Positions 35,913-41,483 of a stretch of DNA of 64,000 bases are shown here, piece after piece. The stretch is taken from assembly GCF_003018115.1 (NCBI RefSeq), contig NZ_CP027457.1. One strand, written 5' to 3'. Position numbers and translations under genes: made by a program. The notes beneath the pieces were generated by a model. The model ran no database searches and had not been told where the DNA came from. It saw nothing but the letters and a program-made list of their open reading frames with translations. Numbering within the stretch: the first letter of the stretch is position 1; each line of letters begins with the position of its first letter. This stretch comes from Escherichia coli. Lineage in GTDB: Bacteria; Pseudomonadota; Gammaproteobacteria; Enterobacterales; Enterobacteriaceae.

Positions 35913-36335
35913 TAAAAGGTGTGTTACAGGGCAGAAATTTCCTGCCCTGTATCATTGGATGAGCGCAAAGGGAATGACCGGTTTGTAAATGTAATTTTAT
36001 GAATTTAAATGGTTTTATCTTTCAGTAGAAACCTGAAACGTTCATCAAACACTAAGGTTATTTCCTCAAGGGCAGATTATTTTCTGCCCTTTTTTAGTGT
36101 TCCTGTTCTGTGCATCCCGTCACAAATTCCTCGCTTTTGTAATTCAGGCATTTAATCGCATTTTGTGAGCCTGCTCAAATCTGCCCATTTTGCCTCTCTG
36201 GCGGTAATTTACTTTACGTAAAACATGCATACTATGAGCACATGTTTAAATATGAACACATGTTTAAACCGTCTTTGCAGTATCTATATTCTTGTGGATT
36301 GACAGGGTTGGTAATTTTTTACCAGAGGACGTGCT

Positions 36336-38203: not shown

Positions 38204-38296
38204 TTTCTGACGGGCAGAAAGCCGTCGCCCGTACTCATCAAACATACCAAAACCTGGCGCTGACGCCGGGTTTACTGGCATGAAGGGAAAATCATT

Positions 38297-39547
38297 ATGG
38301 ACATAATGAGAAGTGTTGTGGGGATGGTGGTGTTACTGGCAATAGCATTTCTGTTGTCAGTGAATAAAAAGAGCATCAGTTTGCGTACGGTTGGAGCCGC
38401 ACTACTGCTGCAAATTGCTATTGGTGGCATCATGCTCTATTTTCCGCCGGGAAAGTGGGCTGTAGAACAGGCGGCATTAGGCGTTCATAAAGTGATGTCT
38501 TACAGTGATGCCGGTAGCGCCTTCATTTTTGGTTCGCTGGTCGGGCCGAAAATGGATGTCCTCTTTGACGGTGCGGGTTTTATCTTCGCCTTTCGCGTAC
38601 TCCCGGCGATTATCTTCGTCACTGCGCTCATTAGTCTGCTGTACTACATTGGCGTGATGGGGCTGCTGATTCGCATCCTTGGTAGCATTTTCCAGAAAGC
38701 CCTCAACATCAGCAAAATCGAATCTTTTGTTGCGGTTACCACTATTTTCCTCGGGCAAAATGAGATCCCGGCGATCGTTAAACCGTTTATCGATCGCATG
38801 AATCGCAACGAGTTGTTTACCGCAATTTGTAGCGGGATGGCGTCCATTGCGGGTTCGATGATGATTGGTTATGCCGGAATGGGCGTACCAATTGACTACC
38901 TGTTGGCGGCATCGCTGATGGCGATCCCCGGCGGTATTTTGTTTGCACGTATTCTTAGTCCGGCAACCGAGCCTTCGCAGGTCACATTTGAAAATCTGTC
39001 GTTCAGTGAAACGCCGCCAAAAAGCTTTATCGAAGCGGCGGCGAGCGGTGCGATGACCGGGTTGAAAATCGCCGCCGGTGTGGCGACGGTGGTCATGGCG
39101 TTTGTCGCAATTATTGCGCTGATTAATGGCATTATCGGCGGAATTGGCGGCTGGTTTAGTTTTACCAATGCTTCTCTGGAAAGTATTTTTGGCTATGTGC
39201 TGGCACCGCTGGCGTGGATCATGGGTGTGGACTGGAGTGATGCCAATCTTGCGGGTAGCCTGATTGGGCAGAAACTGGCGATTAACGAATTCGTCGCTTA
39301 CCTGAGTTTCTCCCCATACCTGCAAACGGGCGGCACGCTGGAAGTGAAAACCATTGCGATTATCTCCTTTGCGCTTTGTGGTTTTGCTAACTTTGGTTCT
39401 ATCGGTGTTGTCGTTGGCGCATTTTCGGCTATTTCGCCAAAACGTGCACCGGAAATCGCTCAGCTTGGTTTACGGGCGCTGGCAGCAGCAACGCTTTCCA
39501 ACCTGATGAGCGCGACCATTGCCGGGTTCTTTATTGGTTTAGCTTGA
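38297..39547 (+). CDS. psuT: Nucleoside (putative pseudouridine) transporter (YeiM), NupC family
   Basis: ORF track 416 aa; paralog of 41484..42734. Confidence 0.9.
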   Translation: MDIMRSVVGMVVLLAIAFLLSVNKKSISLRTVGAALLLQIAIGGIMLYFPPGKWAVEQAALGVHKVMSYSDAGSAFIFGSLVGPKMDVLFDGAGFIFAFRVLPAIIFVTALISLLYYIGVMGLLIRILGSIFQKALNISKIESFVAVTTIFLGQNEIPAIVKPFIDRMNRNELFTAICSGMASIAGSMMIGYAGMGVPIDYLLAASLMAIPGGILFARILSPATEPSQVTFENLSFSETPPKSFIEAAASGAMTGLKIAAGVATVVMAFVAIIALINGIIGGIGGWFSFTNASLESIFGYVLAPLAWIMGVDWSDANLAGSLIGQKLAINEFVAYLSFSPYLQTGGTLEVKTIAIISFALCGFANFGSIGVVVGAFSAISPKRAPEIAQLGLRALAAATLSNLMSATIAGFFIGLA

Positions 39548-40274: not shown

Positions 40275-40442
40275 CAATTGCAGCTTAAGATCATTATTGT
40301 GGATTTCTTTCACGATGTTTATCCGCTGTGAGATTTCTCATATTTAGCATACGTACGCTGTTGTTAAGATTCAATCATCGGCCCGGTCGAATTTTCTTTG
40401 CTGTAGAAAAAATAACGCAACTGGAAACAGAGGAAATAAACA

Positions 40443-41384: not shown

Positions 41385-41483
41385 GTGTTGATAACAAGCC
41401 GGGCCGGTATCGCAAGATGCAGGCCTGGCTATTTCTGATGGGCAGAAAGCCGTCGCCCAATATGACATGAAGAGATAATCACT

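What the first reader, a model, noticed from the sequence alone, without database searches (positions are those of the whole stretch)
38205..38240. Conserved hairpin motif upstream of both paralogous nucleoside transporters
CTGA(C/T)GGGCAGAAAGCCGTCGCCC occurs upstream of psuT (38207-38237) and of nupX (41433-41465), although the genes preceding them differ (psuG versus rihB). It forms a GACGG/CCGTC stem and may be a shared regulatory or RNA element that was duplicated with the transporter gene.
Basis: seen in the sequence. Interest (0 to 1): 0.3.

Follow-up and report, generated by a model that had tools for sequence, protein, structure and literature searches.

The report
Conserved hairpin before nucleoside transporter genes
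A short RNA hairpin that appears not to have been described sits just upstream of both E. coli PsuT/NupX-type nucleoside transporter genes and is conserved across enteric bacteria, so it is a good candidate control element whose function is still unknown.

Summary
The repeat is real. TTTCTGAYGGGCAGAAAGCCGTCGCCC occurs at 38204-38230 (before psuT) and 41432-41458 (before nupX) and nowhere else in the window.

In about 50 orthologous spacers from some 20 genera of Enterobacterales, the conserved element is a 5-7 bp stem, YGGGC/GCCCR. Its outer pairs covary (C-G to U-A at least three times). It closes an 11-nt loop, A-G-N3-G-C-N-G-U-C, in which 7 positions are nearly invariant. This fold is also the minimum-energy fold in E. 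coli.

The element always lies on the sense strand, in the spacer between an enzyme gene (psuG or rihB) and the transporter gene. It predates the psuT/nupX duplication.

It is not:
- an intrinsic terminator (no U-tract; separate terminator-like hairpins lie beside it),
- an Rfam family,
- a small ORF,
- a promoter operator (the psuK promoter has its own, different operator).

I found no alternative pairing or pseudoknot. A few lineages carry an unrelated perfect hairpin at the same place.

Best reading: a cis-acting RNA stem-loop recognised sequence-specifically by an unknown factor, setting transporter expression separately from the upstream enzymes. The mechanism is untested and no experimental data exist.

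The parts
38210..38232 (+). hp1, psuT copy. 5' arm ACGGGC 38210-38215; 11-nt loop AGAAAGCCGTC 38216-38226; 3' arm GCCCGT 38227-38232. The MFE fold adds a bulged A38216 and the pairs G38217-C38226 and A38218-U38225.
   Evidence: -11.1 kcal/mol; CM score 50.5 bits
41439..41459 (+). hp1, nupX copy. 5' arm TGGGC 41439-41443; loop AGAAAGCCGTC 41444-41454; 3' arm GCCCA 41455-41459. Its U-A outer pair replaces the C-G pair of the psuT copy.
   Evidence: -8.3 kcal/mol; CM score 38.7 bits
38204..38209 (+). TTTCTG flank, identical at 41432-41437. It is specific to Escherichia. It forms a TTTCTG/CAGAAA dyad with the loop that is not conserved elsewhere.
   Evidence: 45% paired across genera
38236..38253 (+). 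G-free, A/C-rich linker CATCAAACATACCAAAAC. The consensus in other genera is ATATCAGACATACCAAAA. It is absent from this strain's nupX leader and from C. amalonaticus psuT leaders.
38250..38273 (+). hp2, a terminator-like hairpin AAACCTGGCG-CTGA-CGCCGGGTTT (A-tract, G+C stem, only 3 U). It is conserved in psuT-type leaders and in one NupX-type leader (L027, K. spallanzanii).
   Evidence: 9 conserved pairs; -15.2 kcal/mol
41397..41430 (+). rihB-proximal hairpin AGCCGGGCC...GGCCTGGCT followed by ATTTCT. A hairpin of variable sequence occupies this place in most rihB-nupX spacers. In Pluralibacter (L037) it has a clear U-tract.
38283..38309 (+). psuT translation-initiation region: Shine-Dalgarno AAGGGA 38283-38288, ATG 38297, and the palindrome TCATTATGGACATAATGA 38292-38309 spanning the start codon.
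41462..41494 (+). nupX translation-initiation region: ATGACAT 41462-41468 pairs with ATGTCAT 41488-41494, enclosing the Shine-Dalgarno AAGAGA 41470-41475 and the ATG at 41484.

Best explanation
hp1 is a cis-acting RNA stem-loop transcribed as part of the psuK-psuG-psuT and rihB-nupX mRNAs. It lies in the untranslated spacer just before the transporter cistron.

Its anatomy is a G+C stem (invariant GGGC/GCCC plus one to three covarying outer pairs), a probable bulged A, and a loop with fixed G..GC.GUC.

I propose that an unidentified trans-acting factor, most likely a protein, reads the loop and bulge sequence-specifically. Binding would change the fate of the transporter cistron (processing, stability or translation) independently of the upstream enzyme genes.

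Shown here: the hairpin, its covariation, its strong purifying selection, its exclusive position and orientation, and its descent from an ancestral rihB-nupX operon into both paralogs.

Inferred: that it acts as RNA rather than DNA, that something binds it, and what the output is.
For: - Conserved helix: 90% of cells are paired. The outer pair is CG 32 / UA 8 / UG 3. 0 of 500 shuffles reach the observed value, and the slid controls score far lower.
- The helix is extended by different sequences in different lineages, for example CUGCGGG/CCCGCAG, UAUGGGC/GCCCAUA and GGCGGGC/GCCCGCC.
- C-G to U-A switches occur at least 3 times on the transporter tree. In E. sichuanensis an invariant G-C pair has become U-A.
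- Loop constraint: mean pairwise identity is 0.84 for the 19-nt core, against 0.47 at four-fold degenerate sites and about 0.35-0.43 in the flanks.
- The covariance model hits only the sense strand of the spacer before the CNT gene in 51 places. It hits nothing in the psuK or rihB/yeiL promoter regions.
- The inner G-C pair becomes G.U in 6 sequences, which fits pairing on the sense strand.
- The hairpin is the MFE fold in E. coli and most genera.
- No sigma-70-like promoter was found in either spacer, so the spacers are probably co-transcribed with the upstream genes.
- The psu operon's DNA control sites (a CRP-like site and the CACATGTT-N8-AACATGTG dyad) are at the psuK promoter and look nothing like hp1.
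Against: - No binding factor is known, and no neighbouring gene encodes an obvious RNA-binding protein. YeiL and YeiI both carry DNA-binding HTH domains.
- E. coli has only two sites, a very small regulon for a dedicated factor.
- Hafnia, Entomohabitans (psuT copy) and a 66%-identical distant operon carry unrelated perfect hairpins at the same place. In those lineages a plain hairpin may be enough.
- The distance to the start codon varies from 26 to 69 nt, and I found no alternative pairing with the Shine-Dalgarno sequence, hp2 or the flanks. There is therefore no visible route from binding to output.
- Wobble counts on the outer pairs do not settle the strand.
- No transcript ends are mapped in these spacers in the data sets I could read.
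Confidence: 0.42

Rival explanations
1. Structure-only intercistronic hairpin. Any stable stem-loop here would serve. It could act as a barrier to exonucleases or as a 5'-terminal protective hairpin after RNase E cleavage in the adjacent A/U-rich or G-free segments. Either way the transporter message and the enzyme message would acquire different stabilities.
For: A hairpin is kept at this place even where hp1's sequence is gone: Hafnia has a 16-bp perfect hairpin at -18.7 kcal/mol, and Entomohabitans psuT and the distant operon L182 also have replacements. hp1 is flanked 5' by A/U-rich sequence and 3' by a G-free A/C-rich block. It starts about 6-13 nt after the psuG stop codon in psuT-type operons. 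No expression platform was found.
Against: This does not explain why 7 of 11 loop positions and the GGGC/GCCC sequence itself are nearly invariant while four-fold sites are saturated. A 5-bp stem of -8 to -11 kcal/mol is a weak barrier. rihB-nupX spacers already carry another, stronger hairpin next to the stop codon.
Confidence: 0.25
2. Minimal ligand-sensing RNA (riboswitch-like). hp1, perhaps together with the A/C-rich tail, would bind a pyrimidine nucleoside or a catabolite and tune import.
For: The element has a conserved loop inside a covarying stem, lies directly upstream of nucleoside transporter genes in two different operons, and matches no Rfam family. Its size (about 25-50 nt) is in the range I recall for the smallest riboswitch aptamers such as preQ1-I and guanidine-II. 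That comparison is from my own knowledge and was not tested.
Against: It is a single short hairpin. There is no covariation linking the loop to the tail or flanks and no alternative pairing with hp2 or the translation-initiation region. The tail is missing in the E. coli nupX leader of this window and in C. amalonaticus psuT leaders. Several lineages have replaced the element.
Confidence: 0.12
3. Double-stranded DNA operator for a transcription factor such as YeiL or YeiI, controlling an internal promoter for the transporter gene.
For: GGGC-N11-GCCC is a dyad. YeiL (a CRP/FNR-type HTH protein) adjoins every rihB-nupX module, and YeiI (winged HTH plus PfkB kinase) adjoins psuKGT modules. Wobble counts on the outer pairs do not favour either strand.
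Against: The outer dyad positions covary instead of being conserved, and they differ between the two copies within one genome. The conserved inner positions are asymmetric. No promoter-like hexamers lie in the spacers. No copy occurs in the psuK or rihB/yeiL promoter regions. The psuK promoter has a different, A/T-rich operator. hp1 occurs in loci where neither yeiL nor yeiI lies within the fetched flanks, and next to each of them separately.
Confidence: 0.08
4. hp1 is simply the terminator of psuG and rihB.
For: It lies downstream of both genes, starting about 6-13 nt after the psuG stop codon.
Against: It has no U-tract: it is followed by GUACUCAU in the psuT leader and AAUAUGAC in the nupX leader. 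The terminator scan does not report it. Terminator-like hairpins are separate elements: hp2 downstream in psuT leaders, and the rihB-proximal hairpin upstream in nupX leaders. hp1 tracks the transporter gene, not the upstream gene.
Confidence: 0.04
5. A neutral remnant kept similar in E. coli only by gene conversion between the paralogs.
For: Both Escherichia copies share lineage-specific states: loop C at 38223/41451 and the TTTCTGA flank. This points to concerted evolution of about 30 nt.
Against: Gene conversion within Escherichia cannot explain conservation across about 20 genera, including genomes in which only one copy was seen in the fetched loci.
Confidence: 0.02

Closest known systems
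PyrR-binding loops in the Bacillus subtilis pyr operon (intercistronic attenuators before pyrP and pyrB)
   Same: A small hairpin with a conserved loop lies in an intercistronic spacer directly upstream of a pyrimidine transporter gene. In psuT-type leaders a terminator-like hairpin follows it.
   Different: hp1 has no resemblance to the PyrR consensus. I found no antiterminator or anti-antiterminator alternative pairing. hp2 is absent from most NupX-type leaders. The comparison with PyrR rests on my own knowledge. I recall no PyrR-type regulator in enterobacteria, but that was not tested here.
Intercistronic mRNA stabiliser or processing hairpins (for example malE-malF REP, pap and puf operons)
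   Same: A stem-loop lies between cistrons that probably need different expression levels, an enzyme versus a membrane transporter. The place is occupied by unrelated hairpins in some lineages.
   Different: hp1 is short (5-7 bp), has only two copies per genome, and has a strongly conserved loop. Generic stabilisers lack that last feature.
Protein-recognised operator hairpins with a bulged A (MS2/PP7 coat-protein operators, lambda boxB)
   Same: A short G+C stem, a probable bulged A and fixed loop bases, which is the architecture typical of sequence-specific RNA-protein recognition.
   Different: The sequences and loop sizes are unrelated, and there is no phage context. The resemblance is architectural only and is recalled, not tested.
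Smallest riboswitch aptamers (preQ1-I, guanidine-II mini-ykkC)
   Same: Comparable size, and a conserved loop in a covarying stem upstream of a transporter gene.
   Different: No Rfam match. It has no second hairpin of the same kind, as guanidine-II has. There is no evidence for a loop-tail pseudoknot, as preQ1-I has, and no expression platform.

Membership tests
Intrinsic (Rho-independent) terminator | G+C-rich hairpin immediately followed by a U-tract | tested here: not met
   hp1 is followed by GTACTCAT (psuT) or AATATGAC (nupX). The terminator scan does not list it. Across genera the 3' flank is RNNNATATCA.
Any Rfam 15 family | Covariance-model score at or near the family's gathering threshold | tested here: not met
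   The best overlapping hit is isrJ at 20.1 bits against a threshold of 37, E = 3.4.
Riboswitch | Conserved, covarying aptamer structure upstream of a related gene | tested here: inconclusive
   There is one covarying helix with a conserved loop, but only a single hairpin and no further helices or pseudoknot.
Riboswitch | Expression platform: alternative pairing with a terminator or the Shine-Dalgarno sequence | tested here: not met
   Duplex energies between the hp1 region and the hp2 arms, or between the 5' flank and the translation-initiation region, are no better than shuffles.
Riboswitch | Direct binding of a small ligand | not testable with these tools
   This needs in-line probing or ITC.
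Transcription-factor operator (dsDNA dyad) | Conserved symmetric half-sites, placed at a promoter, recurring in co-regulated promoters | tested here: not met
   Only GGGC/GCCC is symmetric. The outer positions covary and the inner conserved bases are asymmetric. No promoter lies in the spacer. No copy occurs in the psuK or rihB promoter regions. A different operator sits at psuK.
REP/BIME-type repeated extragenic palindromes | Many dispersed copies per genome | tested here: not met
   The median is 2 places per E. coli genome, the two leader sites.
Small ORF or leader peptide | Start codon, open frame and conserved peptide | tested here: not met
   The codon-like frame GGG-CAG-NNN-GCN-GTC has TAA or TGA at NNN in 6 sequences and no start codon. 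The antisense frames are interrupted next to the core.
PyrR-type attenuator | PyrR-binding consensus loop plus antiterminator/terminator alternative | tested here: not met
   The loop sequence is different (compared with the PyrR consensus as I recall it). No alternative pairing with hp2 was found.

The most novel reading that the evidence does not exclude
hp1 is the sensor of a previously unknown post-transcriptional switch in E. coli. It could be a minimal nucleoside- or catabolite-binding RNA, or the operator of a dedicated RNA-binding protein. Either way it would gate PsuT/NupX-type nucleoside uptake independently of the catabolic enzymes encoded upstream.
Probability: 0.15. Interest if true: 0.75.

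Novelty: new member of a known kind. Interest (0 to 1): 0.4.

Why it matters
The physiology and regulation of PsuT and NupX are poorly understood. A 2024 study detected only weak uridine and cytidine uptake by NupX, and no uptake by PsuT of the nucleosides it tested (PMC11241209).

A 25-nt element kept nearly unchanged from Escherichia to Pantoea, in two operons that share only the transporter gene, implies that transporter dosage is controlled on its own. It also gives a precise, easily mutated handle: four or five nucleotides in K-12 at 2,257,401-2,257,421 and 2,254,170-2,254,190.

If a factor or ligand binds it, that would be a new regulatory RNA in the best-studied bacterium. It would also be relevant to engineering pseudouridine production strains.

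If it proves to be a plain stability hairpin, it is ordinary.

Tried and rejected
2. The E. coli dyad TTTCTG-N5-CAGAAA as an operator: 45% paired across genera, no signal.
3. Rfam search: nothing.
4. Other copies: none in the 64-kb window apart from a weak 15.7-bit hit on the fruA terminator. None elsewhere in the fetched loci. E. coli genomes show a median of two places.
5. Metagenome scan with YGGGCAGNNNGCDGTCGCCCR: 119 of 120 hits are chance matches in high-GC DNA, mostly 56-77% G+C. Only L168 is a genuine psuK-psuG locus.
6. Small ORF across hp1 on either strand: rejected.
7. Pseudoknot or long-range partner of the loop: mutual information reflects phylogeny only.
8. 5' flank pairing with the translation-initiation region, as suggested by the E. 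coli MFE: z is about 0 across genera.
9. Antiterminator pairing between hp1 and hp2: z is about 0.
10. Sigma-70 and sigma-54 promoter readings of hp1: no hexamers found. For sigma-54 the GG/GC spacing is wrong by my inspection.
11. Wider phylogenetic range: the next protein clusters are at 47% identity or less. The one 66%-identical operon lacks hp1.
12. Experimental transcript ends: none found in these spacers in the eLife 2021, Cappable-seq or SMRT-Cappable-seq supplements as held. These files may be truncated, and the operons may be poorly expressed in laboratory culture.
13. Literature searches on psuT, nupX, yeiL and rihB regulation found no description of the element.

Full report
**Setting.** The window is E. 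coli chromosome. The gene order is fruK-fruA, then psuK-psuG-psuT (+ strand), yeiL (- strand), rihB-nupX (+ strand), then yeiI, nfo and yeiH (- strand), then yeiE (+ strand). PsuT and NupX are 88% identical CNT-family nucleoside transporters.

TTTCTGA[C/T]GGGCAGAAAGCCGTCGCCC is at 38204-38230 and 41432-41458. There are no other matches with up to three mismatches, and none in shuffles. With the preceding A, the block is 27/28 identical between the two leaders. Four-fold degenerate sites of the two genes are only 89/185 identical. A 43-nt query over the psuT copy finds a median of two places per genome in 5,424 E. coli genomes. K-12 carries both copies, at NC_000913.3 2,257,401-2,257,421 and 2,254,170-2,254,190, minus strand.

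- A protein-seeded scan of one genome per species returned 46 enterobacterial loci. The spacers before the transporter gene share the core R-Y-GGGC-A-G-NNN-G-C-N-G-T-C-GCCC-R-Y.
- On a 47-sequence alignment the outer helix (columns 15-20 with 32-37) is 90% paired. The pair next to GGGC/GCCC is C-G in 32 sequences, U-A in 8, U.G in 3 and unpaired in 3. The next pair out is A-U in 12 and G-C in 11. No shuffle in 500 reaches these values, and the slid registers score far lower.
Two of its five pairs are broken in 33 of 46 sequences.
- That helix exists only because Escherichia has a C at the twelfth core position, where other genera have G, T or A.
- The E. coli dyad TTTCTG/CAGAAA is not conserved either.
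- Even in E. coli the minimum-energy fold is the outer helix plus a bulged A and two inner pairs, at -11.1 kcal/mol for psuT and -8.3 kcal/mol for nupX.

**Strength of the evidence for a real, selected hairpin.**
- Different lineages extend the helix with different sequences.
- On a neighbour-joining tree of the transporters, the C-G/U-A state switches at least three times.
- In Enterobacter sichuanensis, where the motif is decaying, one invariant G-C pair has become U-A.
- Mean pairwise identity is 0.84 for the 19-nt core and 0.73 for the loop, which has four free positions and seven nearly fixed ones. It is 0.47 at four-fold degenerate sites and about 0.35-0.43 in the flanks.
- A covariance model built from the alignment finds only the two sites in the window. 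The one extra hit, at 15.7 bits, falls on the fruA terminator.
- In 59 loci the model hits only the sense strand of the spacer before the transporter. The single exception is a remnant after psuG in an Escherichia strain that has lost psuT.

**Context and history.** There are two modules:
- psuK-psuG-[hp1]-psuT in Escherichia, Citrobacter, Klebsiella, Enterobacter, Kosakonia, Phytobacter, Buttiauxella, Kluyvera and others. In most of these yeiL is not adjacent.
- yeiL(-)/rihB-[hp1]-nupX in Escherichia, Salmonella arizonae, Superficieibacter, Ewingella, Pantoea, Izhakiella, Pluralibacter and others.

The psuT clade nests inside the rihB-nupX diversity. hp1 is therefore an old feature of the transporter's leader and moved with the gene when it was duplicated. 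Both Escherichia copies share lineage-specific states (the loop C and the TTTCTGA flank), which indicates concerted evolution of about 30 nt within that genus.

The PsuT/NupX subfamily is compact. The next protein clusters are at 47% identity or less. The one operon with a 66%-identical transporter lacks hp1 and has a 10-bp perfect hairpin in the same spacer. Hafnia and the psuT copy of Entomohabitans likewise carry unrelated long perfect hairpins at the same spot, just upstream of the conserved AATATCAG block.

**What hp1 is not.**
- It is not an intrinsic terminator. It has no U-tract and the scan does not report it. The terminator-like elements are separate. hp2 (38250-38273: A-tract, 7-10 bp G+C stem, UUU) is conserved in psuT-type leaders. 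A hairpin of variable sequence lies next to the rihB stop codon (41397-41430 here), and in Pluralibacter it has a clear U-run.
- It matches no Rfam family.
- It is not coding. The suggestive frame GGG-CAG-NNN-GCN-GTC has stop codons at NNN in six sequences and no start codon. The antisense frames are closed next to the core.
- It is unlikely to be a DNA operator. The symmetric outer positions covary rather than being conserved, and they differ between the two copies in one genome. The conserved inner bases are asymmetric. No promoter-like hexamers lie in the spacers. No copy lies in the psuK or rihB/yeiL promoter regions.
- The psuK promoter has its own conserved architecture: a CRP-like TGTGA-N6-TCA site and a CACATGTT-N8-AACATGTG dyad. 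The dyad is exact in 17 psuKGT loci and bears no resemblance to hp1.

**Looking for a mechanism.**
- RNAalifold on psuT-type leaders gives hp1, hp2, a small hairpin next to the Shine-Dalgarno sequence, and a hairpin spanning the start codon, all as independent elements.
- I found no covariation between the free loop positions and any flank or CDS column.
- The 5' flank does not pair with the translation-initiation region better than chance.
- The hp1 region does not pair with either arm of hp2 better than chance.
- hp1 therefore stands alone, at a variable distance (26-69 nt) from the start codon.
- Wobble counts on the outer pairs do not decide the strand (3 versus 2, and 1 versus 5). The inner G-C pair becomes G.U in six sequences, which fits the sense strand.
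- The neighbouring regulators YeiL (cNMP-binding domain plus Crp-type HTH) and YeiI (winged HTH plus PfkB kinase) have DNA-binding domains. hp1 occurs in loci lacking either one.
- No transcript 5' or 3' ends are reported in these spacers in the supplements I could read.
- The literature I could search says nothing about the element.

**Verdict.** A conserved hairpin that appears not to have been described belongs to the leader of the PsuT/NupX transporter clade. A near-invariant loop and bulge on a covarying stem is the signature of sequence-specific recognition. My best reading (about 0.4) is therefore a cis-acting RNA operator for an unknown factor that sets transporter expression apart from the upstream enzymes. 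The main rival (about 0.25) is a structure-only processing or stability hairpin. That reading is favoured by the lineages that swapped in plain hairpins, but it leaves the loop conservation unexplained. A minimal ligand sensor (about 0.12) and a DNA operator (about 0.08) are less likely. The terminator and neutral-remnant readings are essentially excluded. The finding is modest but concrete, and it is directly testable with a handful of point mutations.

Noticed in passing
window 36164-36262 (psuK upstream); exact dyad matches in 17 loci, e.g. L009 1440-1463 and L021 1426-1449: The psuK promoter region is conserved across 10 genera. It has a CRP-like site TGTGA-N6-TCA (36164-36179), TTTACTTT (36208-36215), and an inverted repeat CACATGTT-N8-AACATGTG (about 36239-36262; the second half is altered in E. 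coli). The repeat occurs once per psuKGT locus and never in rihB loci. It is probably the psu operon's repressor operator, with YeiI as one candidate binder.
   Followed up: partly
window 42790-43878 (-): YeiI is a winged-HTH (HTH_24) domain fused to a PfkB sugar kinase, and is a paralog of PsuK. It lies convergent and downstream of psuT in nearly all psuKGT loci, so it may be a kinase-regulator for pseudouridine catabolism.
   Followed up: partly
window 36068-36091: The fruA terminator AAGGGCAGATTATTTTCTGCCCTT shares GGGCAG...GCCC with hp1 and gives a weak covariance-model hit on the minus strand (15.7 bits, E = 0.013). This is probably coincidence. A published TSS (MG1655 2259533, equivalent to about window 36099) lies just after it.
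   Followed up: partly
window 40327-40342: TGTGAGATTTCTCATA lies in the yeiL-rihB divergent region. It is a CRP/FNR-type site resembling the one before psuK, and is a possible YeiL or CRP target.
   Followed up: no
L028 431-1287: Escherichia sp. MOD1-EC7003 has lost most of psuK and all of psuT, but keeps a psuG fragment followed by an intact hp1 (47.5 bits).
   Followed up: no
window 41459-41466 versus L002 6660-6700: The E. coli nupX leader is polymorphic. This window and K-12 have GCCCAATATGACATG, while another strain has GCCCATAACGGGATCAGACCTGACATG. The shorter form breaks the outermost A-U pair and removes the CAGAC block.
   Followed up: no
window 38292-38309 and 41462-41494: Hairpins span the start codons. 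TCATTAT/ATAATGA around the psuT ATG is conserved in most genera and contains two in-frame ATGs. ATGACAT/ATGTCAT encloses the Shine-Dalgarno sequence and ATG of nupX. Both could limit translation initiation.
   Followed up: partly
L034 3429-3463; L030 about 100-140; L182 2402-2445: Hafnia, Entomohabitans (psuT copy) and a distant psuK-psuG-CNT operon carry unrelated long perfect hairpins where hp1 would be.
   Followed up: partly
window 38236-38253: The G-free C/A-rich block CAUCAAACAUACCAAAAC resembles the C/A-rich translational enhancer sites that G/U-rich sRNAs such as GcvB target. This is from my own recollection and was not tested.
   Followed up: no
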